A program made the translations under genes and the position numbers. The notes beneath the pieces are model-generated. The model ran no database searches. It was given only the letters and a program-made list of their open reading frames with translations, and had not been told where the DNA came from. Below, one piece after another: positions 1 to 36,934 of a stretch of DNA of 64,000 nucleotides (position 1 is its first letter; the number at the start of each line of letters is the position of its first letter). The DNA comes from Escherichia coli phage vB_EcoS_Ace: the sequence record MT833283.1, one strand, 5' to 3'.

Positions 1-68
1 CCTGGGATTCGAACCCAGAACTGACGGATTAAAGGTCCGCTACTCTTATCCAGTTGAGCTAGCAATCC
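1..68 (-). tRNA. tRNA, 3' acceptor end cut by window edge; anticodon loop read as CCTTTAA (possibly UUU, Lys)
   Basis: Minus-strand hand fold: D-arm GCTC/GAGT, anticodon stem GCGGA/TCCGT, T-arm CTGGG-TTCGAAT-CCCAG; the 3' acceptor strand lies outside the window. C at position 33 is atypical. Confidence 0.55.
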
Positions 69-700
69 AATTTTTCTACTAATAATTTAAAAGCATCTAG
101 TACAGGTACTTCAAACCACTCTCCAGATACTCTATAATCTTTAAGAAGATTATGTAATTCTTTCTCTGTACGTCTTTTATCCGACGAAAATCTGAAATGG
201 TATAGCTTGTAGTCTCTATTAGGTGAATAAGTTTGATAACTTGCTAACCTCTCATTCACATCTATAGTCATACCTATTTTATACATGCCTGGCCATGCTG
301 GATTACCAATTACATATATAAAACCTTCCGTTATAGGTATTTTATGCTCCCTTTTATACTTTAAGAGATTTAAGGCTGCCATTCGATAACAGAATCTAAA
401 CTCTGAAGTTTTTAACTTACCTTCTTTACCCGAAATTTCGTTATATTTGCTCATATAAGCTCTTATGAGCTTATCATCTATAATGAAGTTATCAGGAAGG
501 TTTAAGGCAGCTAAAACTTTATTAATTAGCATAGACTTCCTTAATAGAGTATCCTTAATAGAGTAGACTTTCAAGTAAGGATGATTGATTCCTAATTCCG
601 CCATCACTTCGTTTTTATCTTTACCGTAATGGGCTAGTGGATACTTCTTACGATCTTTGCTAGATCGTAGATCACTTACCTTTAAACGAAATAATTTCAT
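59..700 (-). CDS. GIY-YIG-like (T5orf172/MUG113-type) domain protein, homing-endonuclease-like
   Basis: 213 aa ORF; core FIYVIGNPAWPGMYKIGMT...NERLASYQTYSP resembles the GIY-(10 aa)-YIG motif; paralog of the 3847-4377 ORF; sits between tRNA genes. Confidence 0.7.
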   Translation of the reverse strand: MKLFRLKVSDLRSSKDRKKYPLAHYGKDKNEVMAELGINHPYLKVYSIKDTLLRKSMLINKVLAALNLPDNFIIDDKLIRAYMSKYNEISGKEGKLKTSEFRFCYRMAALNLLKYKREHKIPITEGFIYVIGNPAWPGMYKIGMTIDVNERLASYQTYSPNRDYKLYHFRFSSDKRRTEKELHNLLKDYRVSGEWFEVPVLDAFKLLVEKLDC

Positions 701-721
701 TTCGAAATCCTTCTATTAAAT

Positions 722-799
722 TGGAAGCGGGTGTAGGAATCGAACCTACCTCTTTCTAGCTTATGAGACTAGCGATCTCTACCAAAGATCTAACCCGCA
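722..799 (-). tRNA. tRNA with CAT anticodon (Met or lysidine-modified Ile2)
   Basis: Hand fold: anticodon stem CTAGT/GCTAG, loop CTCATAA, T-arm GTAGG-TTCGATT-CCTAC; CCA encoded (plus 722-724 tgg). Confidence 0.7.
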
Positions 800-805
800 A
801 TTGTT

Positions 806-882
806 TGGTCTCCAATGAAGGACTCGAACCTTCAACCCCACCGCCCCAAACGGTGTACTCTAGCCAATTGAGCTAATCGGAG
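806..882 (-). tRNA. tRNA-Pro (TGG)
   Basis: Acceptor CTCCGAT/ATTGGAG, D-arm GCTC/GAGT, anticodon stem CACCG/CGGTG with loop TTTGGGG, T-arm GAAGG-TTCGAGT-CCTTC, CCA encoded. Confidence 0.8.
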
Positions 883-891
883 AATATTATT

Positions 892-1089
892 TTATTGTGG
901 TGGAATATTAATATTCCGTCCATCTATGCAGTAAATGGTACTAGGAATTGTAGAGTGTATACTGAAGTTTTGTATTTTACTCTCTCCACCACAGAAATTT
1001 TTTGCAAATTCATACTCCTTGTTAATGGTTGAATCAAATTTAAAGCAACCAGTGAGTAAGAATACAGATAGTAACATAACTTTTTTCAT
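892..1089 (-). CDS. small lipoprotein (lipobox LLTGC), function unknown
   Basis: 65 aa ORF starting MKKVMLLSVFLLTGC (signal peptide plus lipobox Cys); a T5-type promoter lies directly upstream on the minus strand (about 1110-1165). Confidence 0.6.
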   Translation of the reverse strand: MKKVMLLSVFLLTGCFKFDSTINKEYEFAKNFCGGESKIQNFSIHSTIPSTIYCIDGRNINIPPQ

Positions 1090-1139
1090 TTTGCTTTCCT
1101 TCTCAACACTTTATAAGATATATTATACAGAGAATTAAG

Positions 1140-1408
1140 CAAAATAGCAAATGAATTTTTAATAAATTTACTTATTGCGTAGGCCACCTGGAGGGTTCAA
1201 GCCCCACGTCTGACAAAGAAGTTTGCGAGACTTCTCTTAAACGCCAGAATAGACCCGCCGATCTATCGGAACCTACTCAATAAGTAAACTTTCGTTTACC
1301 TACACCTACCTGGTCGGGAGGATTTTCAGCTACTAGAACCGGCCGGAAACTCATCGCCTTGTTTACCTTGTAGTCCCACTATAAGTGACGCGACCTACAA
1401 AGATTTTG
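1140..1408 (-). other. ORF-free GC-elevated segment with tRNA-like stem-loops that I could not fold into a canonical tRNA
   Basis: No ORF of 60 aa or more; hairpin GAAGT-CTCGCAA-ACTTC (minus strand, 1218-1234) looks like an anticodon arm; neighbouring TTCAAGC T-loop-like element has a poor stem. Confidence 0.3.
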
Positions 1409-1479
1409 TGCGGTCGGAGGGAATCGAACCCTCAACTTCTGGTTGGCAACCAAAAATTATACCTTTTAACTACGAACGC
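1409..1479 (-). tRNA. tRNA-Gly (GCC)
   Basis: Acceptor GCGTTCG/CGACCGC (one mismatch), anticodon stem TTTGG/CCAGA with loop TTGCCAA, T-arm GAGGG-TTCGATT-CCCTC; CCA not encoded. Confidence 0.7.
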
Positions 1480-1489
1480 ATAATGAGTC

Positions 1490-1690
1490 AATCTAGGTAG
1501 GACTTGAACCTACTATCACTTGTGCGGATTTACGAGAACCATTCTTTCACTCGAATCGAACGAGCTTCTACCCTCGGCAAGCTGGTGTCCCCTCTCCACC
1601 ACGCTAGAATGATAATTAATGCCTGCTCCTTTGAATCAAGAAGTCCACCCCGGACTTTGGGTCTTTGCAGTACATCACGCTGCTCTGATG
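1490..1690 (-). other. tRNA-like region with two T-arm-like elements, unresolved (tRNA pseudogenes or an atypical long tRNA-like RNA)
   Basis: T-arm-like GTAGG-TTCAAGT-CCTAC (plus 1497-1513) and GCTCG-TTCGATT-CGAGT (plus 1549-1565); candidate acceptor pairing 1490-1496 with 1604-1610 would give about 120 nt, too long for a standard tRNA. Confidence 0.3.
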
Positions 1691-1692
1691 TT

Positions 1693-1769
1693 TGGTACAC
1701 CCACTAGGACTTGAACCTAGAACCTACCGCTTAAGAGGCGGTAGCTCTAACCAATTGAGCTATGGATGT
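1693..1769 (-). tRNA. tRNA-Lys (CTT)
   Basis: Acceptor ACATCCA/TGGGTGT, D-arm GCTC/GAGC, anticodon stem ACCGC/GCGGT with loop CTCTTAA, T-arm CTAGG-TTCAAGT-CCTAG, CCA encoded. Confidence 0.8.
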
Positions 1770-1775
1770 ATAATT

Positions 1776-1850
1776 TGGCGGTACTAAGGGTAATCGAAAC
1801 CCTACCTCTCCCGTGACAGGGGAGTATCCTAACCGTTAGACTATAGTACC
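1776..1850 (-). tRNA. tRNA-Asp (GTC)
   Basis: Acceptor GGTACTA/TAGTACC perfect, anticodon stem CTCCC/GGGAG with loop CTGTCAC, T-arm AGGGT-TTCGATT-ACCCT, discriminator G then CCA encoded. Confidence 0.85.
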
Positions 1851-2371
1851 TTTAACTTTTTAAGTTCTTTAGGATTGCCTCCTAAAGAAGTGTATCTTTT
1901 ACGCAACCCATTATCTGAATAACTTAACTTTCTCCCTGCACCTGACCAGCCTAGCTCTCTTACTGTAACCTCGATTATTTCTTTAGTTATAGAGATATCT
2001 TTTGGTTTATGTGAAGAGCACTCCTGACATTTTTCAGCTTTTAAAGAAATAGCTTTACCACAATCCTTACAACAATTATCATGGTTTAGTTTACTAAATC
2101 CTTTATCTTTTAAAGTCTTTTCTAGATGCTGCTCTTTTGTGAGCACTTGTAAGTTATTAAGACCCCAATAAGTAATGTCTGTGTTAATATGGTCAACTTC
2201 TAGTTCAGAGTCTAGACTTGGTAATTTCTTAAATGCACATGCTAAAATCCTATGTACACCAGTATTTCTCTGTTGACCATTTTTATGGAGACGTATAGAT
2301 AAGTATCCGTAATTACTGGTTATTGGGGTTAGTATTTTGTTTGATTTGATACTAAATACTAACCCATCCAA
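1841..2371 (-). CDS. HNH homing endonuclease
   Basis: 176 aa; HNH core VHRILACAF...EVDHINTD...NNLQVL; C-terminal Cys-rich region; located within the tRNA island. Confidence 0.75.
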   Translation of the reverse strand: MDGLVFSIKSNKILTPITSNYGYLSIRLHKNGQQRNTGVHRILACAFKKLPSLDSELEVDHINTDITYWGLNNLQVLTKEQHLEKTLKDKGFSKLNHDNCCKDCGKAISLKAEKCQECSSHKPKDISITKEIIEVTVRELGWSGAGRKLSYSDNGLRKRYTSLGGNPKELKKLKVL

Positions 2372-2425
2372 ACTTACTAAGTACTTCTCAAACCCTGGAA
2401 TGGGTAAGGATATTCAGTGCATAAT

Positions 2426-2611
2426 TTACTCAGTTTTGAGTTTTTCGATAGCTTCCTCAACCTCTTTTAGAGCTTCACGACGCTCTACTTGACCTTGAAG
2501 TTCTTCAAGAAGTTCAGCTTTCAGAGCCTTAATAATATTACCACGAACCTTAATATTATTAATCAGATTATCACGATCAGCTTCTAGTCGAGCAATTGCA
2601 CGAGTTGTCAT
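2426..2611 (-). CDS. hypothetical small coiled-coil protein
   Basis: 61 aa ORF with RBS GAGGAAA upstream of the ATG on the minus strand. Confidence 0.5.
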   Translation of the reverse strand: MTTRAIARLEADRDNLINNIKVRGNIIKALKAELLEELQGQVERREALKEVEEAIEKLKTE

Positions 2612-2714
2612 ATCTATTTCCTCAGTTGTTAATGAAAAATGGTATCTGTGACTGAATTCGATATCAGCAATGATAGCTGGTTGGCTACCGGTTTACTTAA
2701 CTCTACACAGAATA

Positions 2715-2797
2715 TGGCGGGCCGTGTAGGATTCGAACCTACGTTGTCTTTCGACATGGATTAACAGTCCACCGCCAAACCGCTTGGCTAACGACCC
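2715..2797 (-). tRNA. tRNA, anticodon read as GTT (Asn) with an unusual 13-nt extra arm
   Basis: Acceptor GGGTCGT/ACGGCCC, D-arm GCCA/TGGC, anticodon stem GTGGA/TCCAT with loop CTGTTAA, extra arm GTC-GAAA-GAC, T-arm GTAGG-TTCGAAT-CCTAC, CCA encoded. Confidence 0.6.
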
Positions 2798-2804
2798 TAA
2801 AATT

Positions 2805-2880
2805 TGGACGACCGCATGAGATTCGAACTCACATAAGGAGGTTTTGCAGGCCTCCGCCTAAGCCATTCAGCCAACGGTCG
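2805..2880 (-). tRNA. tRNA, anticodon uncertain (apparent 9-nt anticodon loop CCTGCAAAA; GCA/Cys or TGC/Ala)
   Basis: Acceptor CGACCGT/GCGGTCG, T-arm GTGAG-TTCGAAT-CTCAT, CCA encoded; anticodon stem GGAGG/CCTCC encloses 9 nt. Confidence 0.55.
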
Positions 2881-3058
2881 ATTTATCTTGCTTTTCGAGA
2901 TTAGTAAACTCTAGATCTATAGAATGTCCTATAGATCTAGCATAATAGCCATCTCCAGCATCATAGCCTGACTTACCACACTCACACATCTTAAACTCTC
3001 TATAACGAGTGAAAATATGTTCAGAACCACAACACTTAAATTTAACTAACATTTTCAT
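2867..3058 (-). CDS. hypothetical small Cys-rich (zinc-ribbon-like) protein
   Basis: 63 aa ORF with CC...C.C pattern (KFKCCGSEH...CECGKSG); 3' end overlaps the tRNA 5' end by about 14 nt. Confidence 0.45.
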   Translation of the reverse strand: MKMLVKFKCCGSEHIFTRYREFKMCECGKSGYDAGDGYYARSIGHSIDLEFTNLEKQDKSTVG

Positions 3059-3297
3059 TTAACACGCTCCGGTAAATCTTCGAGTTTATATTGAGTAGCC
3101 ACATTAGCAGCATCTAGTAACAAACCCATATGTTTAAGAATCCTAGTGATAGCCTCGCCTTCTGCTTCTTCTACAAAAGTGCGTAGTTGAATGAAGTCAA
3201 TACCACCATCCATACCAGAGAAAATGTTAAGTAAGCGAAGCATTACCAGCTTACGTTCTTTCAGTTCTTGTTCTATCATGTTGCTTCTCCAGTTCAA
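3055..3297 (-). CDS. hypothetical protein
   Basis: 80 aa ORF, stop/start overlap with the downstream ORF; minus-strand promoter at about 3305-3350. Confidence 0.5.
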   Translation of the reverse strand: MNWRSNMIEQELKERKLVMLRLLNIFSGMDGGIDFIQLRTFVEEAEGEAITRILKHMGLLLDAANVATQYKLEDLPERVK

Positions 3298-3329
3298 TTT
3301 ATGTAATAATTATACAGAACTTTAAGGAT

Positions 3330-3668
3330 TTAAGCAACTACATTTTTCAGAAATTTGATGCCTTTCTTACACTTCTTATACCACCACGTCTTAGAGTTTT
3401 GTCGATTATGAACGCTTGAGATCTTCGCCTCATTAAAGTGCTTCAAAAGCATATAATCAGCCCCTAATTGCTCAAGTGGAATGTGATCTCCACTAGAATC
3501 ATAAACATAAGGCCGTTGATTAGCTCTGTAGTGATATACCTTATTAATCCGGCGTTTAAGCAAAGGACTAGTACAGTATATAAAGAAGTTTTTAGGATGC
3601 ATCAGCATCTCCTTCAAAATTGGTGCACCCCGTTGGTAACGATCCAACCTCTCAAGCTCTTCAGGCAA
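3330..3668 (-). CDS. hypothetical protein
   Basis: 112 aa ORF on the coding strand of this block. Confidence 0.5.
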   Translation of the reverse strand: MPEELERLDRYQRGAPILKEMLMHPKNFFIYCTSPLLKRRINKVYHYRANQRPYVYDSSGDHIPLEQLGADYMLLKHFNEAKISSVHNRQNSKTWWYKKCKKGIKFLKNVVA

Positions 3669-3701
3669 GCGCTAATCCATCTCAGCTAAAGGTGCAAATA
3701 T

Positions 3702-3777
3702 TGGCAAACCTACTAGGACTCGAACCTAGACCGTACGGTTTTGGAGACCGACATGCTGTCCAGTAACACTCTAGGAA
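3702..3777 (-). tRNA. tRNA-like, low confidence (anticodon read as CCA, Trp); acceptor pairing poor
   Basis: Good T-arm CTAGG-TTCGAGT-CCTAG and CCA encoded (plus 3702-3704), anticodon arm CGGT-CTCCAAA-ACCG; the 5' acceptor strand has two mismatches in my fold. Confidence 0.45.
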
Positions 3778-3786
3778 TGCAGAAAT

Positions 3787-3860
3787 TGGTATTCTCACAC
3801 GGATTCGAACCGAGATTTCTGGAGTGAAGTTCCAGTGACCTAACCATTAGTCGATGAGAA
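3787..3860 (-). tRNA. tRNA, anticodon read as TTC (Glu)
   Basis: Acceptor GTTCTCA/TGAGAAT, anticodon stem CTGGA/TCCAG perfect with loop ACTTCAC, T-arm CTCGG-TTCGAAT-CCGTG, CCA encoded. Confidence 0.6.
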
Positions 3861-4377
3861 CATTATATTCTTTTGCTTTCTCTAATTTTAGAAAAGACTT
3901 TAATTCTTCTAAGTTAATTATATTAAACCATTCACCTTCTAGTGCAAAAGGTTTAAGAAACTTATGTATTTTTGATTCTACCGCACGTCTATCGGAGTAG
4001 AATTGATAGTGCTCCAGAGTAAAATCTCTGTAAGGACTATATGTTTGATATGACCTCAGTCTTTCATGGACATTTACTGTCATACCTATTTTGTAACAAT
4101 TAGGCCATGCTTTATTGCCAATAACATATACCATACCTTCATACACAGGTAATTTATGCGCTTGTTTATACTGAATAAGATTTAAAGCAGAAATTCTATC
4201 ATACTGCATTATTCTTTTAGTATTCTTCTTTTCAGTACAAGTACCTTTTATCTCATTATAGATTTCTCGATATTTAGCAAGTAAATCTACATCAATAACA
4301 AAAGGTATAGTAGGAGAGATAATATCTCTTTCCTCCATAGCGCTAATTACTATTTTTGGTATATCTGGTATTGCCAT
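3847..4377 (-). CDS. GIY-YIG-like (T5orf172/MUG113-type) domain protein, paralog of 59-700
   Basis: 176 aa; shared core GMVYVIGNKAWPNCYKIGMTVNVHERLRSYQTYSPYRD with the 59-700 ORF. Confidence 0.7.
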   Translation of the reverse strand: MAIPDIPKIVISAMEERDIISPTIPFVIDVDLLAKYREIYNEIKGTCTEKKNTKRIMQYDRISALNLIQYKQAHKLPVYEGMVYVIGNKAWPNCYKIGMTVNVHERLRSYQTYSPYRDFTLEHYQFYSDRRAVESKIHKFLKPFALEGEWFNIINLEELKSFLKLEKAKEYNVLID

Positions 4378-4397
4378 TTTTAGACCTTAGTTAAATT

Positions 4398-4485
4398 TGG
4401 TGGGCGTTAATGGAGTCGAACCACTCGAGTCGCAATGACCAGGGATTTACAATCCCCTCCGCTACCACTTACGGAATAAACGCCC
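4398..4485 (-). tRNA. tRNA-Tyr (GTA), type II with long variable arm
   Basis: Acceptor GGGCGTT/AACGCCC, D-arm TCCG/CGGA, anticodon stem GGGGA/TCCCT with loop TTGTAAA, about 15-nt variable arm, T-arm AGTGG-TTCGACT-CCATT, CCA encoded; 88 nt. Confidence 0.75.
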
Positions 4486-4616
4486 ATATTTAGAAGTATT
4501 CAAAAAATTCTCATTTAAACACTTTTAAATATGTTTCCAAATTAGATAACTATTATATCAAGTTTTATGGCACTGAGCAAGTCAGATTTTAAAGAACTTG
4601 CTCAGTGCTGTATTAG

Positions 4617-4892
4617 TTAGTCGAACTTAGGAGTGACAGTTAAGGAGAACGGAAGTTCAAAAACTTCTTCACCCTCATCACTAACAGTGATTACCCGACC
4701 CTCTAACTTATTCATGCTAATCTCAACATCAGCCGTAGCATCTGGAGCCATGCCAGCTTCAACACATTTAGCTTTAATTTCCGGCAGAAGTTCTACATCA
4801 TAGAAATAAAGCCATTCAATCTCACCTTCCCAGCCTTCCCAGGATTTACAGATTGCACTTTCAATACCAGTTGTTATAACACGATTTTGCAT
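4617..4892 (-). CDS. hypothetical protein
   Basis: 91 aa ORF; strong hairpin (4570-4610) just downstream on the minus strand. Confidence 0.5.
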   Translation of the reverse strand: MQNRVITTGIESAICKSWEGWEGEIEWLYFYDVELLPEIKAKCVEAGMAPDATADVEISMNKLEGRVITVSDEGEEVFELPFSLTVTPKFD

Positions 4893-4982
4893 TCGTTAAC
4901 TCCTTCATCAATTTATATAACTATTATAACAGAAATCTTAAGTAAAAAGCAAGTACATTTTTAAAATTTCTGCTTGGAGGAG

Positions 4983-5255
4983 TTAAACTCCTGATTCTTC
5001 AGCCAGATCAAGCCCAACCAACGTGATTGCCATAATAGCCGCGCCATGTTCCTTCTCTCCTAGCTCTTTAGCTTGAGTGAGAATATTGAGGAATTGCTTT
5101 TGAAAATCTGTAACTTCTTCTGTCATGCCTGCTTCAGCAATAATTCCTTTCAGCATAAAGCGTTGTGCCGTAATTTCAGGATTAGCCATTTGTTTTCTCC
5201 AGTTATTTAGAATGTAAGCCAAACTTAGGATCATAGCGATCATAAGTCGTACCAT
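4983..5255 (-). CDS. hypothetical protein
   Basis: 90 aa ORF. Confidence 0.5.
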   Translation of the reverse strand: MVRLMIAMILSLAYILNNWRKQMANPEITAQRFMLKGIIAEAGMTEEVTDFQKQFLNILTQAKELGEKEHGAAIMAITLVGLDLAEESGV

Positions 5256-5341
5256 TAGTTGAAGCCTTGATGCTATGAAAACGACAGTACATAAATTTAC
5301 GTAGTGCTTTATTAATAGCTTTCATTTTATTTCCTTTTATT

Positions 5342-5418
5342 TGGTAGGGGTGGTGGGATTCGAACCCACAAAACCTGAATTTTAAGTCCAGTACCTATGC
5401 CAATTCGATTACACCCCC
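5342..5418 (-). tRNA. tRNA, anticodon read as TAA (Leu) with short variable arm
   Basis: Acceptor GGGGGTG/CACCCCT, anticodon stem CTGGA/TTCAG with loop CTTAAAA, T-arm GTGGG-TTCGAAT-CCCAC, CCA encoded. Confidence 0.6.
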
Positions 5419-5426
5419 ATGTAATC

Positions 5427-5765
5427 TTAGCGAATCTCTAAACCCTGGAAATATCGAGGGAATGGAGAGCCAACTTCAAAATTAATACCCCAATTAAGTT
5501 CAACGAGTTCAGATTTATTAAGATCCAGACCATTACCTTCAAAGATATAGCCGTAAACCGCAGGGAACATAGCTGCTAGATCTTCCATATCGGAATGAGC
5601 ATTGTGTTCTTCACGAAACTGCTCAAACTCTTCAAAGAACTTTTCTAGGAAGAACTCTGGTACAATGAACGTTACTACATCTGTGGTATCATCAATACGA
5701 TAGATGGTAGCTTGGAATAGACCTACACCTAAAAGGTTGACTGCCGGAGTTGTAAAAATATCCAT
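5427..5765 (-). CDS. hypothetical protein (start moved to internal ATG)
   Basis: The ORF track starts at 5876, but the ATG at 5765 has RBS GAGG and follows the stop of the upstream ORF (TAA-A-ATG), avoiding a 110-nt overlap. Confidence 0.5.
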   Translation of the reverse strand: MDIFTTPAVNLLGVGLFQATIYRIDDTTDVVTFIVPEFFLEKFFEEFEQFREEHNAHSDMEDLAAMFPAVYGYIFEGNGLDLNKSELVELNWGINFEVGSPFPRYFQGLEIR

Positions 5766-5766
5766 T

Positions 5767-5952
5767 TTAGCCTCGCTCAATATCAAAAGAAATTGCATAA
5801 TTAGGGTTAATGCCAGAACCTTTACAGGTAGGACATTCCCATTCGTTATAGAAAATGTCCCCAGGTTCAGCATCATTTTGAGTGCCAGAACCCCAACATT
5901 CAGTACACATACATTCTTCTAGCTCTTGAGCAATTTCTCGAAAGCGTGACAT
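5767..5952 (-). CDS. small zinc-finger-like protein
   Basis: 61 aa with CxxCxGSG...CPTCKGSG motifs; RBS AGGAGA upstream. Confidence 0.55.
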   Translation of the reverse strand: MSRFREIAQELEECMCTECWGSGTQNDAEPGDIFYNEWECPTCKGSGINPNYAISFDIERG

Positions 5953-5969
5953 ATAGTCTCCTAATTAAT

Positions 5970-6047
5970 TGGTGGCTCCCGGAGGATTCGAACCTACCTA
6001 CCTTTCGCTTATGAGGCGACGGCTCATACCAAATGAGCTTGAGAACC
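5970..6047 (-). tRNA. tRNA with CAT anticodon (second copy; Met or Ile2)
   Basis: Acceptor GGTTCTC/GGGAGCC, D-arm GCTC/GAGC, anticodon loop CTCATAA, T-loop TTCGAAT, CCA encoded. Confidence 0.7.
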
Positions 6048-6052
6048 AAATC

Positions 6053-6146
6053 TGGAGGAAGATGCCAGATTCGAACTGGCACACCGTGTTTCCACAGCTA
6101 CTGGCTGTTTAGCAAACAGCTCCCTTACCATTAGGGTTAATCTTCC
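6053..6146 (-). tRNA. tRNA-Ser (GCT), type II
   Basis: Acceptor GGAAGAT/ATCTTCC perfect, anticodon stem GCTGT/ACAGC with loop TTGCTAA, long variable arm, T-arm GCCAG-TTCGAAT-CTGGC, CCA encoded; 94 nt. Confidence 0.8.
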
Positions 6147-6197
6147 GAATTTATGAATATATTATACAGAAAATTTCGACATTAAGCAAGTGAAATT

Positions 6198-6494
6198 TTA
6201 CTGAACCTTGCACTGATATACTTGTTTGATACGTGTCACTGACTTCTTAGTTGGATTGATAGAAGAACCCTGCCACCAACGTGATTCTGAGCTGAGAACA
6301 GTACCAGGAACAGCTTGTTCTTTTGGCAGAACAATATCAAAACACTGTTCACCCATATTATCTTTAATGTGCGACCAAATGTCTAGAGTAAATCGTTCTA
6401 GCTTATTACAAACTTGAACTTGACAAAGTTCCTGTTGTGGAGCAGCAAATACAGAAGTAGATACTAGAGTCAATGCAAGTACAATGCGTTTCAT
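6198..6494 (-). CDS. secreted protein with signal peptide
   Basis: Start at ATG 6494 (MKRIVLALTLVSTSVFA) preceded by the T5-type leader TTTGAGAGAGGAATCAAAT and a promoter at about 6515-6570. Confidence 0.65.
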   Translation of the reverse strand: MKRIVLALTLVSTSVFAAPQQELCQVQVCNKLERFTLDIWSHIKDNMGEQCFDIVLPKEQAVPGTVLSSESRWWQGSSINPTKKSVTRIKQVYQCKVQ

Positions 6495-6600
6495 ATTTGA
6501 TTCCTCTCTCAAATTTATAAATATATTATACAGAAATTTTCTATATTAAGCAAGTGAAAATTTCTGTATAATAGCCCTCGCTTAGAGGGCTATAGCTACT

Positions 6601-7293
6601 TTATTTGTTAACGCGTACAAAGTATCCTTTATATGCCCCAAGAATAGAGTTACCTAAAAATACTAGCCACATTGCTAGGATTGCATAAGATGCACCTGTA
6701 GATTGAGCAGTTACAAGCCAAATGTATACAGTACCAATGTTAATAGCAATCCAGATCAGCCACTGCTCGGCATACTGCTTAACCATAAGCCACATAGCGA
6801 TCACACTACCTACCGCAGTAAATGCATCCAACATTGGGAATGGATCAGCCGTAGTAGTTAAGAAACTACCATACCCTAACGTGGCTACTGCTAGAATCCC
6901 TAGAGTCAGCAGAGCTTGGACTTTAGTCAGAATCTTAGTTGGAACATCTGGCAGATTACTTGGCTTATTTTTATGCCATAAGTACATTCCATAAAACTGC
7001 ATAGGAACGTAGTATAGCAGGTTTAGTGCAGCGTTACCATAAAGATCTTCGTTTAAAGCTGTAATACCATAGGTAAGAACACCAACTAAGCCCCAAATAT
7101 AGTTAGAAACACGTCCTTTAGCAACCAAAATAACACAAACTACGTTGGTTATCGCAGTAGCCCAATCTAGAGGTGTACCATTATAGTTAGCTAAACTAAT
7201 GAAGGCAACCGCTATGAACAGCCACAGATATTCCAGAGGTTTCCAGTTTTTAAAGTCATTTACGAGATAGTTAGTCATATTAAAACTCTCCAA
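6601..7293 (-). CDS. pnuC: nicotinamide riboside transporter PnuC
   Basis: 230 aa multi-pass membrane protein; segments PMLDAF and VIAMWLMVKQYAEQWLIWIAINI match PnuC family signatures as I recall them from E. coli PnuC. Confidence 0.8.
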   Translation of the reverse strand: MESFNMTNYLVNDFKNWKPLEYLWLFIAVAFISLANYNGTPLDWATAITNVVCVILVAKGRVSNYIWGLVGVLTYGITALNEDLYGNAALNLLYYVPMQFYGMYLWHKNKPSNLPDVPTKILTKVQALLTLGILAVATLGYGSFLTTTADPFPMLDAFTAVGSVIAMWLMVKQYAEQWLIWIAINIGTVYIWLVTAQSTGASYAILAMWLVFLGNSILGAYKGYFVRVNK

Positions 7294-7903
7294 CGTTAAA
7301 GTGATGAATCAGCCAGTCTACTGCGTTTACTGCTTCGTCCATACGAACTTTGTAGTCCGGGGAGTCGATGTACACAGTACGCCCTTCAGGGAACTGATTT
7401 GGAAATTCTTTCTTCATCTGCTCGAACAGTTCAGAAGTAATTGAACGATCGGAGTTAATACGTAAACCATCATCTACCCACTTGACAGTGGGCGCTAGAA
7501 CAATTACTAAATCGTAATGTTCTTCTTTTGCAATTGCTGTAACCACAGGGTTCTTACGATGTTCATAAAGTCTGTGGTAGAACTCAGTAATAAAAGCATT
7601 TGTATCCACAAACATGATCTTATTTGCAGTACGTTCTGCCTCAAACTCTAGCTCTTTGTGTCTGAACGCAATTTTACTATAATCTTCGCTGGTAAGCAGA
7701 TTTTCGTTACCAACTAGATCAACTTCACAATACGTTCGACCATATTCTTCTACCCACGAAGTGTTGTATAGCTTCGCAAGGTATTTTGTTAAAGTAGTCT
7801 TTCCTGAGCTTTCAGTCCCAATGATTACAACCCTACGCACGTAATCTTTACGAACTACGCTAGGAAGAAACTCCCAATACTTCATAAGATCATTACGAAT
7901 CAT
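7280..7903 (-). CDS. nadR: NadR-like ribosylnicotinamide kinase domain (downstream part of a nadR-like gene interrupted by an in-frame TAG)
   Basis: Walker A IIGTESSGKTTL; translation of the same frame upstream back to the TAG at 8114-8116 gives ...RVPISATMIRNDL (nucleotidyltransferase ISxTxIR motif) with no further stop. Confidence 0.75.
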   Translation of the reverse strand: MIRNDLMKYWEFLPSVVRKDYVRRVVIIGTESSGKTTLTKYLAKLYNTSWVEEYGRTYCEVDLVGNENLLTSEDYSKIAFRHKELEFEAERTANKIMFVDTNAFITEFYHRLYEHRKNPVVTAIAKEEHYDLVIVLAPTVKWVDDGLRINSDRSITSELFEQMKKEFPNQFPEGRTVYIDSPDYKVRMDEAVNAVDWLIHHFNVGEF

Positions 7904-8113
7904 TGTAGCTGAGATTGGAACACGAGTCCGATCAGAATCTACAATATAATGACCAAACTTCGGCAGATATTTCTTATATTCTGCATCATAGTCTAGTTCG
8001 CTAGAGAAAATGGTGATCTCAGGTAAATGTCCGTAATTTTCATTAAGGATTCTAGCATATTCCGGCCAACCATTCGGATATTCAGGAATATCATCTTCAA
8101 TAATATACTCTAC

Positions 8114-8335
8114 CTAAACGTGCTCAATATCCGCGTAAGTTTGTTCTAACCAACGAAGACGATTCTTTAACTGTAATACTTCCTGATCACGTGTGTTCTG
8201 CTTATCCAGCCAACGATTATCATGACTAACTACAATAATAACTCGTTCACACATAGTTGCTGCTGTATTTATTAGGTTAATATGGCCACGCGTTAAGGGT
8301 GCGAACTTACCAATTACTAGACCAGTCTTAATCAT
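8114..8335 (-). CDS. nadR: NadR-like NMN adenylyltransferase N-terminal fragment, ending at in-frame TAG
   Basis: MIKTGLVIGKFAPLTRGHINL carries the (H/T)xGH nucleotidyltransferase motif; same frame as 7280-7903; start ATG 8335 has RBS AGAGAGG and a T5-type promoter. Confidence 0.7.
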   Translation of the reverse strand: MIKTGLVIGKFAPLTRGHINLINTAATMCERVIIVVSHDNRWLDKQNTRDQEVLQLKNRLRWLEQTYADIEHV

Positions 8336-8365
8336 GTTTGATTCCTCTCTCAAATTTATAAATAT

Positions 8366-8394
8366 ATTATACAGAGAATTTAGCATTCAAGCAA
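8366..8394 (-). promoter_or_regulatory. sigma70-type T5 early promoter (-35 TTGCTT, 17-nt spacer, -10 TATAAT) for nadR
   Basis: rc of 8366-8394 gives TTGCTT-N17-TATAAT followed by leader AAATTTGAGAGAGG. Confidence 0.7.
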
Positions 8395-8547
8395 ACGAAT
8401 TTTTAAACTTTTTAGTGGAAAAATCTCAGGGCATTTAATGGTAGCACGTTGTTGCAGCAACAATAGTATGCGATTCTAAAGAATTAAATACTAAAGACCT
8501 TAGTTGAATAACTTATGGGCTTTTCTTTTGCCTTAAATACAGAAAAG

Positions 8548-8578
8548 CCCGCGCTCTCGGAGGGAACGCGGGCTTGGT
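8548..8578 (-). terminator. rho-independent terminator downstream of the SPFH gene
   Basis: Inverted repeat GCCCGCG...CGCGGGC followed by a T-run on the minus strand. Confidence 0.6.
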
Positions 8579-10374: not shown

Positions 10375-11247
10375 ATTGATTCCTTTTGTTAGGTATTTTT
10401 AAGAACTCTCGAAAAAGCTCTTAAAGATACCCGGCGGTAGGTAGGGTCAGCCCCCTCAGATTAAGCTCTGCAGCCCTTCCGTCAGACAATATCCTCCAGT
10501 TTAAGTCAGGGTGACTTTGTGGTTATGTTCTCCGTATGTGAAGAACTCGGTTAGGCTTAGGTCATGACTCCCAGCCTACTGCTGCCACTCAACAGGAATT
10601 ATCGCGAATTACCTGTACTATTGGGCACCATTAGTGACATCTCTCATGCCAGCATTTCCCACTCTCATATTCACGCGGTCTGGTAGAATCACACCTCCGA
10701 TTTTCGATGCGAAGCTGGATGCCTAGTCTCTATGTTAAACGGGGCACACACTAGGCAGTGATCCCGAGTTCCGAGTTTGGTTGAGGCCGTCAGGTTTCCT
10801 CGTGGTTTAGCTGTTTCGATTCTAACCTAATACTGATCAGGCGGCGTACCTCCTGAACCGTCATAGTATGTACTCCAGCAGCGAATGCTTATCCGGTATA
10901 AGCCCGAGTTATCCGATTCTTTCCGACCGCAGGATTCGAACCTGCATCTTCCACCAGTTACGGTTTAATATTACCGTTTATACTAGGACGGCAGTGTTAT
11001 CACATAAGTCAGTTCGACACCCCACTAACATAAACTAGAGAAGAGTTTACGAGATTTCGGGACAGCTCCCGTGTTTTCCGCAGATTTTCAGTTCCCTATC
11101 AATAGCAATAAGCGTTAGCTCGTAGCCTCTCTCAGAGTACTTACTAGTCTCCAACTCACCGACTCTATTCAGTGGAATAGCTATCCTAGTAGGAATCACT
11201 AAACTCACTCAGCGTAATCGGCTCGCTGTTCTCTACTTTATGAATTT
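10375..11247 (-). ncRNA. candidate long structured non-coding RNA or very long leader (ORF-free, GC-elevated, promoter-driven)
   Basis: About 870 nt with no ORF of 60 aa or more in the track; visibly more GC-rich than flanking DNA; strong T5-type promoter at 11248-11276 reads into it; contains canonical T-arm GCAGG-TTCGAAT-CCTGC (plus 10928-10944) without a foldable tRNA body. Confidence 0.4.
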
Positions 11248-23984: not shown

Positions 23985-24746
23985 TTACACCTTCCCCATA
24001 TCCTTAAAGATATCGTAGAATGCTTTAGACTCTGGTGAGCGAACGTTGTCGATCAGTTCGATCATAGAGAAAGGAGAGTTTTCATACTTCTCATAGACTT
24101 CCATAAGAAGTGCTAGACCTGAATCACCCTTGATGTCTTTCTGAGCTATATCTCCACAGATAATTAAACGACAATCTTGTCCTACACGAGTCAAAAGACA
24201 GATCATTGCTTCAACGGAGATATTCTGAGCTTCATCGACAATTACATAGGAGTTGTTGAAAGTTCGGCCACGGGCATGTTCGATAGCCAGGAATTTGATT
24301 TTCTGACGTTCGACATATCCTTTGTAGGCATGATCACCGATTGCCCATTTCATACCATCGGCTATTGGTTCCAACCAAGGCTCTAGCTTTTCTGCTAGAT
24401 CACCTGGGAGCATACCAAGAGATTTACCTAGAGGTTCGTTCGGACGCACGAGGATCACTTGCTCAATATCTGAGTGAATGTCTACGAGTTCCTGAGCTGC
24501 AAGAACGGATGGAATAAAGGTTTTACCAGTACCTGGTTCACCTATACCCACAGTCACTGTGTTGTTCTTGATCATATTGATATATGATTTTTGCTCACGG
24601 TTTTTACCAACTAGGGATTTAGCAACTGGATTGGCGTAATCACCAGAGAAATCTGCTTGAATTACGTTACTCTCGTACTTGTTGCCACGCTTTCTTGAAC
24701 CATTGCGGTTCTCTCTTTTTTGACGTGCTTTTCCCATAAATAACAC
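23985..24746 (-). CDS. phoH: PhoH-like ATPase
   Basis: 253 aa; Walker A GEPGTGKTF, Walker B VIVDEAQN. Confidence 0.85.
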   Translation of the reverse strand: MLFMGKARQKRENRNGSRKRGNKYESNVIQADFSGDYANPVAKSLVGKNREQKSYINMIKNNTVTVGIGEPGTGKTFIPSVLAAQELVDIHSDIEQVILVRPNEPLGKSLGMLPGDLAEKLEPWLEPIADGMKWAIGDHAYKGYVERQKIKFLAIEHARGRTFNNSYVIVDEAQNISVEAMICLLTRVGQDCRLIICGDIAQKDIKGDSGLALLMEVYEKYENSPFSMIELIDNVRSPESKAFYDIFKDMGKV

Positions 24747-27063: not shown

Positions 27064-27282
27064 ATGGCAAAAGTACCACAAGAATTTACGGATGGAATTA
27101 AGGCAGATCTAGATGTAATGCTAATGGCCCAATGGGAGTCTGGCTTCCGAGATGGAATTGATTGTTGTGTGGCCGTGCTCGATACTATTAGTTGGCAGCT
27201 TATTCAATCTGGAAATGATGCAGAAGGCAACCTTCTAGCTAACCTTTCTAAACAAATTAGGGAAATGAAATGCGCAGATTAA
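27064..27282 (+). CDS. hypothetical protein
   Basis: Start at ATG 27064 (MAKVPQEF) with RBS GAGAGGAGAAAA; the upstream ATG at 27034 lies inside the promoter. Confidence 0.5.
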   Translation: MAKVPQEFTDGIKADLDVMLMAQWESGFRDGIDCCVAVLDTISWQLIQSGNDAEGNLLANLSKQIREMKCAD

Positions 27283-28112
27283 TTATTGTTAGTGGTGCAG
27301 GTTTGAGTGTAGATAGTGGTGTTCGTGCTTTCCGTACTGATACTGCTAGTGGGAAATCCTTGTGGGATGAGTACGATCTAGAGGAAGTATGTAGCTTGCC
27401 TAACTTTGAAGCTGGCTTCCGTCGCTTCTGTGGTGAAGATGATCCTAACTACTTCAGTGCTCGTTTCCCTGGCATTGATGAAGATGGTAACGATCTGTAT
27501 CTCAAGACTCATGAGTTCTACAACATGCGTCGTCAGGAATTACAGACTGTTGAGCCTAACATTGCCCATCTGCGAATTGCAGAATGGTTCCAGCGTTATG
27601 ATGCGGATAGCGTGAAGAACTTCACTACTAACGTTGATGACCTTCTGGAACGTGCTGGTATCCCTCGTGATGAAATCATTCACGCTCACGGGTACTTGAA
27701 AGAGGTGATCTATCGTCAGGGTCGCAATCAAATCATCGAAGATGTTGGGTATACTGCGATTGCCCCTGAAGATTACGAATGGGTAAAACCAAACGTAACA
27801 TTCTTTGGTGAGACGGCTCCGTGGTATATGGGTCAGATTAACCTGTTTGATACGCTTACTAGCAATGATATGGTTATTGTGGTAGGTTGTAGCAACCAAG
27901 TGATTGACTTCAACTGGGAACTATTCCCTGCTGTATGTCGTGGAACTAAGATGATGGTTGTTAACCCTCAAGTTCGCTATGATGAACAGCTTGAATATGA
28001 GAAACGTGGTGTTACTGTATGGCGGGCTGGAGCTGCCGAAGTTTTTGGTAACAAGCATTTCATTGGTCAAGTAGAAGCCTTTATGGAAGGAACTATTTAT
28101 GTCGCATCCTAA
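27270..28112 (+). CDS. Sir2-family (sirtuin-like) NAD-dependent protein, no obvious Zn-ribbon
   Basis: 280 aa; Sir2 motifs GAGLSVDSGVRAFR, TTNVDDLLERAG, HAHG, PNVTFFGE, IVVGCS. Confidence 0.7.
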   Translation: MRRLIIVSGAGLSVDSGVRAFRTDTASGKSLWDEYDLEEVCSLPNFEAGFRRFCGEDDPNYFSARFPGIDEDGNDLYLKTHEFYNMRRQELQTVEPNIAHLRIAEWFQRYDADSVKNFTTNVDDLLERAGIPRDEIIHAHGYLKEVIYRQGRNQIIEDVGYTAIAPEDYEWVKPNVTFFGETAPWYMGQINLFDTLTSNDMVIVVGCSNQVIDFNWELFPAVCRGTKMMVVNPQVRYDEQLEYEKRGVTVWRAGAAEVFGNKHFIGQVEAFMEGTIYVAS

Positions 28113-28496: not shown

Positions 28497-28989
28497 TACT
28501 CCTGTGATTTTCCTGGATATTGATGGGGTGCTCAATTCGAGCATCTCTCACCATCATGCTCCAGACAGTGAAAAGCTGTTCTTTGGCAGTGATTGGGTTT
28601 ATAAGCCATTACTCCAGGCTTTTCAGAACTTTCTTAAACCCTCCCCAATAATGATTGTTGGGGTCTCTTCATGGTTTTCTGTACGAAATGAAATGGAGAA
28701 CGTTCAGATTATGACCGGACTCGGTTTGATCGATCGTTTCCTTGGTACAACAGATTTTACTGGAGGTGGTTTATCTCGGGGTAATTCTGTTTTACGTTTC
28801 GTCGAAAAATATAAGCTCAAGCATTGGTGTGTCCTAGATGATGCTGGTGCTATGATGTACCAATTCCCTACTGTTATTGTAAATGGCAGGACTGGAATAA
28901 ACCTTCAAGATTTAAATGCTATCAGCTATATGCTGGAGTTTAGTCCAGATCTTGAAATGTGTAAGGCTCTTCAGAAACTTAAGGTGTAA
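28474..28989 (+). CDS. HAD-like phosphatase (putative)
   Basis: 171 aa; N-terminal VIFLDIDGVLNSS resembles HAD motif I; weak assignment. Confidence 0.45.
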   Translation: MLLVEISNTPVIFLDIDGVLNSSISHHHAPDSEKLFFGSDWVYKPLLQAFQNFLKPSPIMIVGVSSWFSVRNEMENVQIMTGLGLIDRFLGTTDFTGGGLSRGNSVLRFVEKYKLKHWCVLDDAGAMMYQFPTVIVNGRTGINLQDLNAISYMLEFSPDLEMCKALQKLKV

Positions 28990-35375: not shown

Positions 35376-35684
35376 ATGAGCGATCAGGTAAATCAAAACT
35401 ATGAAGGACACGTTGACGACCAGTCCATCATGCTTTGGGAGAAGGAGGGAGAACAAGTAAGACTAACCGTATCTGAATTTCGTGGGAATCTATACATGGG
35501 AATTCGTTACTGGCTCCAAGATATTACTGGAGAGTGGTTTCCAACGAAATCCGGCTTCTCTTTTCCTTATACCCTAGAAACTACGTCACAGCTATTCTAC
35601 GCTTTTACGCAAATCCTCAGTGAATCCGAGGTCTTGCATGAAGTACAGAAACGAGCTGAAGAACTCAAAGCCAAGAATGCCTAG
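35376..35684 (+). CDS. hypothetical protein
   Basis: 102 aa ORF. Confidence 0.5.
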   Translation: MSDQVNQNYEGHVDDQSIMLWEKEGEQVRLTVSEFRGNLYMGIRYWLQDITGEWFPTKSGFSFPYTLETTSQLFYAFTQILSESEVLHEVQKRAEELKAKNA

Positions 35685-35751: not shown

Positions 35752-35970
35752 TTGATGAGAGGATCAATTATGGCAATGACAATAACACTTCCAAAGATTC
35801 AAGCAAAACTTAATTTGCTTTCCATAGCAAAGATCAATTATCAGGACAATATTGGCACTCCAAACCAGAAAGCGTACAAAGATGCGTGGTTAAAAGAAGC
35901 TGCTGATTTAGCTGGTATGGCTGCTCAGTATAATAAAGAACTCAAAATGGAAATCGCAGACGATGAATAA
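35752..35970 (+). CDS. hypothetical protein
   Basis: 72 aa ORF after a T5-type promoter/leader (35710-35765). Confidence 0.45.
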   Translation: MMRGSIMAMTITLPKIQAKLNLLSIAKINYQDNIGTPNQKAYKDAWLKEAADLAGMAAQYNKELKMEIADDE

Positions 35971-36934
35971 TGTAAAAGACTTTATCAAACGTTGTCAAGA
36001 AGCGTACTACCAGGGAATGAGTCTTATTTCCGATGAAGAATATGATCGTCTGATTAAAAGATTCCCACTAGAGGAAGAAATCGGACCGAAAGGTGATATT
36101 CCTCACTTGTATCGTATGTATTCTTTGCAGAAAGTCTATTACGGTCGTGGTGATAAAGCTCCATTCAATCCATTAGGTCAGGTTGAAACTGATAAGTTAG
36201 ATGGCTGTGCAATTTCTCTGTTATATATTAATGGTGAATTTGTTCAAGCGTTAACTCGTGGTAACGGTATTCTAGGGAATGATGTAACGCATAATGTTAA
36301 AATGCTAAACATCCCCAAAACTATTTCCCAAAAAGTACCAACTCAAATCACTGGTGAAGTTCTCATTACTAAAGAAGTAGAGAACAAACGTAACTACGCT
36401 TCGGGTGCTATTAACCTGAAAGACAGCGATGATTTCATGCAACGTATTGGTGAAGGTGGTTTAATCTTCGTTGCATATGGTATCCAGTGTTCAGCGGAAA
36501 CAGTCGGTATTACAGAAGCCTATTTAAAAGATATGCTTTGGCTAGAGAATGAGAACTTCTTGACAGTTGTTAATGTTCGTTCCTTCTTTAAGTGGATTCC
36601 GACGGATGGTAAAGTTGTTCGTATTAATGATAACAACAAATTCTTCCGTGAAGGTTGGACTAATAAATTTCCTCGCGGTGCATTTGCTATTAAAGAGGAT
36701 GAAGAAGGCGAAATTACCACACTTGTTAAAGTTGAATGGCAAGTAGGGGCTTCTGGTAAAGTAACTCCAGTTGGTTATTTCGAGCCGGTGATTATTGATG
36801 ATGCCACAATCGTTAAAGCAACTCTTAATAACGTTGATTATATTAACGCTCTCGATTTAGAGATCGGTTGCCAGATTCGAGTGATTCGTGCTGGTGGTGT
36901 AATCCCTTGTATAGTAGAGCGAGTATACGACTAA
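35963..36934 (+). CDS. ligA: NAD-dependent DNA ligase, adenylation/OB part (subunit A of a split ligase)
   Basis: 323 aa; KxDG adenylation motif (TDKLDGCAISLLY), TRGNG motif. Confidence 0.8.
   Translation: MNNVKDFIKRCQEAYYQGMSLISDEEYDRLIKRFPLEEEIGPKGDIPHLYRMYSLQKVYYGRGDKAPFNPLGQVETDKLDGCAISLLYINGEFVQALTRGNGILGNDVTHNVKMLNIPKTISQKVPTQITGEVLITKEVENKRNYASGAINLKDSDDFMQRIGEGGLIFVAYGIQCSAETVGITEAYLKDMLWLENENFLTVVNVRSFFKWIPTDGKVVRINDNNKFFREGWTNKFPRGAFAIKEDEEGEITTLVKVEWQVGASGKVTPVGYFEPVIIDDATIVKATLNNVDYINALDLEIGCQIRVIRAGGVIPCIVERVYD

What the first reader, a model, noticed from the sequence alone, without database searches (positions are those of the whole stretch)
7280..8386. nadR-like gene interrupted by a single in-frame TAG
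The NMN adenylyltransferase N-terminus (8114-8335) and the ribosylnicotinamide kinase part (7280-7903) are in the same frame. Translating the 210 nt between them gives continuous NadR-like sequence, including the nucleotidyltransferase ISATMIR motif, with the TAG at 8114-8116 as the only stop. This is either a recent nonsense mutation or sequencing error (pseudogene), a naturally split gene with internal re-initiation at ATG 7903, or stop-codon readthrough/suppression. The phage carries at least 15 tRNAs, although I found none with a CTA anticodon.
Basis: seen in the sequence. Interest (0 to 1): 0.7.

Follow-up and report, generated by a model that had tools for sequence, protein, structure and literature searches.

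The report
Amber nonsense mutation in phage nadR
One T5-like phage isolate (vB_EcoS_Ace) carries a real but very recent single-base change, TCG to TAG, that cuts its accessory NAD-salvage gene nadR after 73 codons. This is an ordinary knockout mutation, not recoding or a naturally split gene.

Summary
On the minus strand, 8335 to 7280 is one 351-codon NadR-type reading frame (NMN adenylyltransferase plus ribosylnicotinamide kinase). Its only interruption is TAG at 8116-8114, codon 74.

The window is Escherichia phage vB_EcoS_Ace. GenBank already annotates this gene as two CDSs, of 73 aa and of 274 aa with an ATT start.

All 17 related loci examined have TCG (Ser) at codon 74. One 113-kb metagenome scaffold has a nadR identical to the window's except for this single C-to-A change.

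The TAG is not a read error. Independent assemblies of two other sequencing runs (one contig seen in 4 samples) are 100% identical to the window and include the TAG.

It is isolated. About 60 close orthologues of a relative's genes were compared across the window, and only nadR has an internal stop.

No tRNA with a CUA anticodon was found in the window, in 1.2 kb beyond it, or among a relative's 31 tRNAs. The downstream ATG at 7903 has no Shine-Dalgarno sequence.

Best reading: a recent amber nonsense mutation inactivating the adenylyltransferase of a dispensable NadR-PnuC salvage operon. Interest is low. The one useful point is that Ace may be a natural NadR-null phage.

The parts
8545..8575 (-). 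Intrinsic-terminator-like hairpin (12 pairs, 8 G-C, then a T-run) just after the upstream SPFH/band-7 gene. It separates that gene from nadR-pnuC.
   Evidence: sequence
8361..8390 (-). Sigma-70-like promoter candidate (TTGAAT, 18 nt, TATATT) upstream of nadR. It is a consensus match only, and the count of such matches is not above the shuffled expectation.
8117..8335 (-). N-terminal nadR fragment of 73 codons. It starts at ATG 8335, which has a good Shine-Dalgarno sequence (dG -8.4). It carries the nucleotidyltransferase GKFAPLTRGH (HxGH) motif at 8282-8311. It equals GenBank QNR52318.1 of phage vB_EcoS_Ace.
8114..8116 (-). The in-frame amber codon TAG (codon 74). All 17 related loci have TCG (Ser) here, so the change is a single C-to-A on the coding strand.
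7904..8113 (-). 70 in-frame codons of the adenylyltransferase domain after the stop. They contain no ATG, GTG or TTG. The ATT at 8102-8104 is the start GenBank used for its 274-aa CDS (QNR52216.1); its Shine-Dalgarno pairing is weak (dG -3.9).
7895..7915 (-). ISATMIR, the second nucleotidyltransferase motif (ISxTxxR). It lies downstream of the stop, so it is separated from the HxGH motif.
7280..7903 (-). 207-codon ORF from ATG 7903 to TAA 7280-7282. It holds the ribosylnicotinamide kinase domain (PF13521, E = 3.8e-32; Walker A GTESSGKT at 7796-7819). There is no Shine-Dalgarno sequence before ATG 7903 (dG +0.9).
6601..7278 (-). pnuC, the nicotinamide riboside transporter (225 aa, TIGR01528 119 bits). 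Its ATG lies one base after the nadR stop and has its own GGAG (dG -6.4). It is intact.

Best explanation
A recent spontaneous amber nonsense mutation in one phage isolate, vB_EcoS_Ace: TCG (Ser74) to TAG, a single C-to-A change. It lies in the accessory nadR gene of the nadR-pnuC nicotinamide riboside salvage operon found in T5-like phages. Shown: the mutation is real, unique to this phage among those examined, and isolated in the window. Inferred: ribosomes starting at ATG 8335 terminate after 73 residues. That fragment has the HxGH motif but lacks the ISxTxxR motif and the rest of the Rossmann-type fold, so NMN adenylyltransferase activity is lost. The kinase domain would be made only through inefficient re-initiation (ATT 8104 or ATG 7903). 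pnuC keeps its own ribosome-binding site but may suffer some polarity. The operon is dispensable on laboratory hosts, so the mutation persists in the stock. Codon 74 is a variable position in homologues, so an amber-suppressing host (supD, supE or supF) would probably restore an active protein.
For: A single in-frame TAG sits in an otherwise intact 351-codon frame. The 73-aa and 274-aa pieces match GenBank proteins of vB_EcoS_Ace exactly. All 17 related loci have TCG at codon 74. The nadR of L014, a 113-kb metagenome scaffold, differs from the window's by exactly 1 of 1056 nt, which is this base. The Ser-74 protein is on record from that scaffold. Against other relatives, synonymous codon differences outnumber non-synonymous ones by 12-27 to 3-7, and there are no indels. 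That means purifying selection acted until very recently. Independent Logan assemblies L009 (4 samples) and L010 are 100% identical to the window and include the TAG. Among the 77 CDSs of vB_EcoS-26175II compared, only nadR shows an internal stop in its best tblastn match; about 60 of them match at full length and at least 80% identity. All 120 listed homologues are 335-533 aa. No CUA tRNA was found. Column 74 varies among S, D, I, R, T, V, E, H and K in homologues.
Against: No expression data are available. The remainder of Ace's tRNA cluster, about 3.2 kb more beyond the end of L008 and including the place where relatives have tRNA-Gln(CUG), could not be read, so a phage-borne suppressor is not formally excluded. 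The Logan runs come from the same laboratory stock. They exclude a read or assembly error, but they do not show that the mutation was present in the original environmental isolate. The assignment of runs ERR78885xx to the Ace study PRJEB49704 is inferred, not verified.
Confidence: 0.9

Rival explanations
1. Sequencing or assembly error in the deposited genome, with the real phage carrying TCG.
For: It is a single-base difference from an otherwise identical wild allele.
Against: De novo Logan contigs from two other runs (ERR7888529, with the contig seen in 4 samples, and ERR7888521) are 100% identical to the window over 1862 and 1734 nt and contain the TAG. The contigs run unbroken through the site.
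Confidence: 0.02
2. The amber codon is read through or suppressed, by a phage or host suppressor tRNA or by high basal readthrough, so that full-length NadR is still made.
For: The phage carries a large tRNA set. Several of its tRNAs (Lys CUU, Tyr GUA and Trp CCA, plus Gln CUG in relatives) are one anticodon change away from CUA. Codon 74 tolerates many residues. Part of Ace's tRNA cluster was not available.
Against: There is no CUA anticodon among 17 tRNA or tRNA-like loci in the window, 4 more in L008, or 31 in a relative. Lys CUU, Tyr GUA and Trp CCA are unmutated in the window. The TAG is not conserved in any relative. No other conserved gene has an in-frame TAG. TAG still terminates a conserved gene at 35682-35684.
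Confidence: 0.04
3. A functional two-piece gene: translation re-initiates after the stop (ATT 8104 or ATG 7903). The product would be either a stand-alone ribosylnicotinamide kinase that works with PnuC and host enzymes, or two fragments that reassemble.
For: The kinase domain is complete in the 207-aa ORF (PF13521, E = 3.8e-32). GenBank annotators called a 274-aa CDS from ATT, 9 nt after the stop, which is preceded by a weak AGGU (dG -3.9). Ribosomes that have just terminated can re-initiate nearby (established knowledge).
Against: No relative is split. ATG 7903 has no Shine-Dalgarno sequence (dG +0.9). AUU is a very poor initiator in E. coli (my own knowledge). The HxGH and ISxTxxR motifs of one active site would lie on different chains. 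The split is one mutation old, so nothing has been selected for it.
Confidence: 0.04

Closest known systems
NadR of T5-like (Epseptimavirus/Tequintavirus) phages, e.g. PDB 9x6f/9x6h 'nicotinamide-nucleotide adenylyltransferase' and the 351-aa proteins of Salmonella phages S114, Stitch and vaffelhjerte and Escherichia phage vB_EcoS-26175
   Same: The window's gene is 98-99.9% identical at the nucleotide level and about 99% at the protein level to these. It has the same length, the same position between the SPFH gene and pnuC, and the same HxGH, ISxTxxR and Walker A motifs.
   Different: The window's copy has TAG where all of these have TCG (Ser74), so it cannot give the 351-aa protein by standard decoding.
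Bacterial NadR (Haemophilus influenzae NadR, PDB 1LW7; E. coli/Salmonella NadR, NCBIfam NF005988)
   Same: Two-domain NMN adenylyltransferase plus ribosylnicotinamide kinase architecture. E = 4.8e-55 to 1LW7. Passes the NF005988 cut-off.
   Different: It lacks the N-terminal helix-turn-helix repressor domain; the alignment starts at profile position 65 of 411. It is phage-encoded and paired with pnuC. It is interrupted by a stop.
Classical amber (UAG) nonsense mutants of phages (T4, lambda, T5 am mutants)
   Same: A single-base change from a sense codon to TAG. TCG to TAG is one of the standard one-step routes, and it would be phenotypically reversed by a serine-inserting suppressor such as supD (established genetics).
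   Different: It is spontaneous and lies in a non-essential accessory gene, so it is not conditional-lethal. It was found by sequencing, not by selection.
Phage NAD+ reconstitution pathways NARP1 and NARP2, and the proposed NadR-PnuC pathway (Osterman et al., bioRxiv 10.1101/2024.02.11.579819)
   Same: That paper hypothesises that the phage nadR-pnuC operon is a further route for phages to rebuild NAD+ against NAD+-depleting defence systems. The window carries that operon.
   Different: The paper did not test the pathway. In this phage its key enzyme is truncated.

Membership tests
NadR-type bifunctional NMN adenylyltransferase / ribosylnicotinamide kinase | Whole-protein match to a curated NadR model above its cut-off | tested here: met
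   NF005988 scores 253.9 bits against a cut-off of 201, for the conceptual protein with Ser at codon 74. TIGR01526 scores 273 bits, below its cut-off of 341.
NadR-type bifunctional NMN adenylyltransferase / ribosylnicotinamide kinase | Nucleotidyltransferase motifs HxGH and ISxTxxR in the N-terminal domain | tested here: met
   GKFAPLTRGH (residues 9-18) and ISATMIR (141-147) are both present and aligned with 1LW7. However, they lie on opposite sides of the TAG.
NadR-type bifunctional NMN adenylyltransferase / ribosylnicotinamide kinase | C-terminal P-loop kinase domain with Walker A | tested here: met
   PF13521 at E = 1.2e-31; GTESSGKT at residues 173-180.
NadR-type bifunctional NMN adenylyltransferase / ribosylnicotinamide kinase | N-terminal helix-turn-helix repressor domain (trifunctional enterobacterial NadR) | tested here: not met
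   The match to NF005988 covers profile positions 65-407 of 411, and no HTH family was hit.
NadR-type bifunctional NMN adenylyltransferase / ribosylnicotinamide kinase | Uninterrupted reading frame encoding both domains | tested here: not met
   TAG at codon 74 in the window. The frame is intact in all 17 related loci.
Programmed stop-codon readthrough or TAG reassignment | The in-frame stop is conserved among relatives | tested here: not met
   All 17 related loci have TCG, and no record among 176 matches the 71-nt TAG-centred query exactly.
Programmed stop-codon readthrough or TAG reassignment | Cognate suppressor tRNA (anticodon CUA) available | tested here: inconclusive
   None was found in the window, in 1.2 kb beyond it, or in a relative's full set. 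About 3.2 kb of Ace's own tRNA cluster could not be obtained.
Programmed stop-codon readthrough or TAG reassignment | Other conserved genes also carry in-frame TAG, and TAG is avoided as a terminator | tested here: not met
   Only nadR has an internal stop among the orthologues compared. TAG ends the conserved gene at 35376-35681, as it does in relatives.
Naturally split gene (two functional cistrons) | The split is shared by related genomes | tested here: not met
   Every related locus has one 1056-nt CDS. Protein homologues are 335-533 aa.
Naturally split gene (two functional cistrons) | The downstream part has its own canonical start codon and ribosome-binding site | tested here: not met
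   There is no ATG, GTG or TTG between the TAG and ATG 7903. Anti-Shine-Dalgarno pairing is +0.9 kcal/mol at 7903 and -3.9 at ATT 8104, against -8.4 for the true start.
Sequencing artefact | The variant is absent from independent reads or assemblies of the same phage | tested here: not met
   The TAG is present in Logan contigs from ERR7888529 (4 samples) and ERR7888521, both 100% identical to the window.

The most novel reading that the evidence does not exclude
The unseen part of phage Ace's tRNA cluster carries a mutated tRNA with a CUA anticodon, for example Gln CUG to CUA. That tRNA would suppress the amber codon, so a lytic T5-like phage would maintain a gene through its own suppressor tRNA. 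A milder version is that Ace is a natural NadR-null sister of intact phages, which would make it a ready test of whether NadR-PnuC is an NAD+-reconstitution counter-defence.
Probability: 0.02. Interest if true: 0.5.

Novelty: already known. Interest (0 to 1): 0.1.

Why it matters
It matters little for biology in general. A one-step amber mutation in a dispensable phage gene is routine, and the public record already annotates this gene as two fragments.

There are three modest practical points. First, phage Ace is being developed as a biocontrol agent against E. coli O157:H7 (PMC9512901) and probably lacks a working NadR. That could reduce its performance on hosts with NAD+-depleting defence systems, if the proposed NadR-PnuC reconstitution pathway (bioRxiv 10.1101/2024.02.11.579819) is real. 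Second, Ace and a TAG-to-TCG revertant would form a near-isogenic pair for testing that proposal. Third, the automatic gene caller of a large protein collection translated this TAG as Gln on a short contig. That is a reminder that alternative-code calls on short contigs can hide pseudogenes.

Tried and rejected
1. I scanned IMG/VR for the 26-nt pattern around the codon with NNN at the codon. There was only one hit, with TCG, which was too few for a survey, so I switched to GenBank phages and contig look-ups.

2. I looked up the 73-aa fragment in the gene-position index. It was not on record. The neighbouring pnuC, SPFH and T5orf172 proteins did give contigs.

3. I suspected a signal of adaptation to amber suppression, because three genes end in TAG in vB_EcoS-26175II but in TAA in the window. 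I rejected this: the other relatives also have TAA, so 26175II is the odd one.

4. I examined the marginal tRNA-like locus at 10921-10992, which a relative annotates as tRNA-SeC(tca), as a possible suppressor. It has no CUA anticodon, a poor cloverleaf, and a score of 29.7 bits against a threshold of 29.

5. I could not reach the rest of Ace's tRNA cluster. Look-ups are restricted to proteins encoded in the window, and Ace itself is absent from the phage BLAST collection (best hit 98.4%) and from IMG/VR.

6. The original description of phage Ace (reference 12 of PMC9512901) is not in the paper library. No paper for PDB 9x6f was found.

7. I did not run structure prediction, because a 99%-identical solved structure exists.

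Full report
**1. What is in the sequence**

On the minus strand, ATG 8335 opens a frame that runs for 351 codons to TAA at 7280-7282. Its only interruption is TAG at 8116-8114, codon 74. The start is preceded by GAGAGAGGAA, with anti-Shine-Dalgarno pairing of -8.4 kcal/mol.

The 70 codons between them are ordinary NadR sequence and include ISATMIR.

With Ser placed at codon 74, the conceptual protein:
- matches Pfam CTP_transf_like (residues 7-147) and AAA_28 (168-314);
- passes NCBIfam NF005988, 'NadR', over profile positions 65-407, so it has no helix-turn-helix domain;
- aligns over its full length with PDB 9x6f/9x6h, a T5-like phage 'nicotinamide-nucleotide adenylyltransferase', at E = 3.9e-240;
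- aligns with Haemophilus influenzae NadR, PDB 1LW7, at E = 4.8e-55.

Directly downstream, one base after the nadR stop, lies an intact pnuC nicotinamide riboside transporter gene (6601-7278; TIGR01528). A strong terminator-like hairpin (8545-8575) separates the pair from the upstream SPFH gene.

**2. Where the window comes from**

The 73-aa N-terminal product is identical to GenBank QNR52318.1. The C-terminal 274 residues are identical to QNR52216.1. Both are named 'nicotinamide-nucleotide adenylyltransferase [Escherichia coli phage vB_EcoS_Ace]' and come from a 112,791-bp record.

The depositors started the second CDS at ATT 8104, three codons after the TAG. So the interruption is already in the public record, annotated as two CDSs.

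Ace is a T5-like siphovirus of the Demerecviridae. It was isolated against E. coli O157:H7 and is being studied as a biocontrol agent (PMC9512901).

**3. What relatives have at this position**

Megablast finds 204 phage records covering at least 80% of the region at 90-98% identity. Those inspected annotate one 1056-nt CDS.

In all 17 related loci that I could read, codon 74 is TCG (Ser). These comprise GenBank phages, one IMG/VR contig, and NCBI, ENA and Logan contigs. None of 176 records matches a 71-nt query centred on the TAG exactly.

The most informative relative is L014, a 113,391-bp metagenome scaffold (ENA ERZ28663813). Its nadR differs from the window's at exactly one of 1056 nucleotides, and that nucleotide is the middle base of codon 74. 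The corresponding Ser-74 protein is on record from that scaffold (P0135).

Against the other relatives, the gene shows 12-27 synonymous and only 3-7 non-synonymous codon differences, and no indels. It was therefore under purifying selection until the nonsense change, which must be very recent.

In an alignment of 34 homologues down to 43% identity, every protein is full length. Column 74 is variable (S, D, I, R, T, V, E, H, K).

**4. Whether it is a sequencing error**

It is not. Looking up the window's exact PnuC protein returned two de novo Logan contigs from other sequencing runs:
- ERR7888529, 1862 bp, with the same contig seen in 4 samples;
- ERR7888521, 1734 bp.

Both are 100% identical to the window with no mismatch, and both carry the TAG. 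A third contig from ERR7888521 is 100% identical to window 1-6534 and extends 1.2 kb beyond the window start.

The nearest GenBank relatives are only 97-98% identical, so these runs contain Ace itself. They are most likely the Ace-spiked faecal fermentations of PRJEB49704. That assignment is an inference.

The protein collection lists a 351-aa product for the 1862-bp contig because its gene caller translated TAG as Gln (P0136). This is an automatic alternative-code call on a short contig, not evidence of recoding.

**5. Whether it is part of a wider pattern**

I translated the 77 annotated CDSs of the close relative vB_EcoS-26175II that correspond to the window and searched them against the window with tblastn.
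- About 60 align at full length with at least 80% identity.
- Only nadR contains a stop.
- Stop-codon use among these orthologues in the window is TAA 48, TGA 8, TAG 1.
- The one TAG stop (35682-35684) is shared with relatives.

Three genes end in TAG in 26175II but in TAA in the window. This looked at first like avoidance of TAG. However, other relatives also have TAA, so the peculiarity belongs to 26175II.

**6. tRNAs**

- ARAGORN finds 14 tRNAs in the window.
- Rfam adds tRNA-Phe(GAA) at 3624-3695, a truncated tRNA at 1-68 (Lys UUU, by comparison with L008), and a marginal tRNA-like locus at 10921-10992.
- None of these has a CUA anticodon.
- Lys(CUU), Tyr(GUA) and Trp(CCA), which are each one mutation away from CUA, are unmutated.
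- L008 adds Val and two Ala tRNAs.
- The full set of 31 tRNAs in the relative has no CUA.
- About 3.2 kb of Ace's own cluster beyond L008 could not be obtained. This includes the place where relatives have tRNA-Gln(CUG).

**7. Consequences (inferred)**

Termination at codon 74 leaves a 73-residue peptide. That peptide has the HxGH motif but not the ISxTxxR motif or the rest of the nucleotide-binding fold. These two motifs jointly form the active site in this enzyme superfamily (established knowledge; aligned to 1LW7). NMN adenylyltransferase activity should therefore be lost.

The kinase domain is complete in the 207-aa ORF, but expression looks unlikely:
- ATG 7903 has no Shine-Dalgarno pairing (+0.9 kcal/mol).
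- There is no ATG, GTG or TTG between the stop and that ATG.
- The ATT used by GenBank has only weak pairing (-3.9 kcal/mol) and is a poor initiator.

pnuC has its own GGAG (-6.4 kcal/mol) but loses upstream translation, so some polarity is possible.

The operon is an accessory one. Osterman et al. list phage NadR-PnuC as a hypothesised, untested NAD+ reconstitution route. Loss of it would not prevent growth on a laboratory host.

**8. Verdict**

The finding is real and is not an artefact, but it is ordinary. It is a one-step amber mutation, one mutation away from a circulating intact allele, confined to one phage stock, and already visible in GenBank as two CDSs.
- recent nonsense mutation is supported;
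- sequencing error is rejected;
- natural split gene is not supported;
- suppression has no positive evidence and is only formally open for the unread part of the tRNA cluster.

Interest is low (0.1). Novelty: already known.

Noticed in passing
window 10921-10992 (-): A marginal tRNA-like locus (Rfam tRNA, 29.7 bits against a threshold of 29) that ARAGORN misses. The homologous spot is annotated tRNA-SeC(tca) in vB_EcoS-26175II and 'tRNA-OTHER' in phage vaffelhjerte. The acceptor, D and T arms are conserved between the two phages, but the anticodon-arm region is rewritten. Its function is unclear.
   Followed up: partly
window 59-700 (-): A 213-aa ORF with T5orf172/MUG113 (GIY-YIG-like homing endonuclease type) domains lies between tRNA-Met and tRNA-Lys. 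vB_EcoS-26175II has only a 54-aa ORF at that place. It looks like a mobile endonuclease insertion within the tRNA cluster. Its 3' end appears to overlap the truncated tRNA at 1-68.
   Followed up: partly
window stops at 23985-23987, 28987-28989, 4983-4985 versus L006/L007 (MK907268.1): Phage vB_EcoS-26175II ends three otherwise near-identical genes in TAG, where the window and the other relatives have TAA. Three TAA-to-TAG changes in one lineage is an unexpected concentration.
   Followed up: partly
L009 32-1087 (Logan ERR7888529 contig) = window 8335-7280: The large protein collection holds a 351-aa 'protein' for this contig with Gln at the TAG (P0136). Its gene caller evidently switched to a TAG-sense code on a short contig. 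This masks a pseudogene as an intact gene.
   Followed up: yes
window 3624-3695 (-): tRNA-Phe(GAA) is present (Rfam 33.4 bits, clean cloverleaf) but ARAGORN does not call it. Relative to 26175II, its T-arm carries several differences on both strands, and the arm still pairs.
   Followed up: partly
window 27270-28100 (+), 35963-36931 (+), 37137-37913 (+): By orthology to annotated relatives, the window also encodes a Sir2-like protein and an NAD-dependent DNA ligase split into A and B subunit genes. The ligase is a genuinely conserved split gene in this phage group. It also gives the phage its own demand for NAD+, which is relevant to why it carries nadR-pnuC.
   Followed up: no
L013, L015, L017, L018 (around 6266-8234 in locus coordinates): Some relatives carry two extra minus-strand genes (about 139 and 330 aa, no Pfam hit) inserted between the SPFH gene and nadR. 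L018 appears to lack nadR-pnuC altogether, so the operon is not universal in the group.
   Followed up: no
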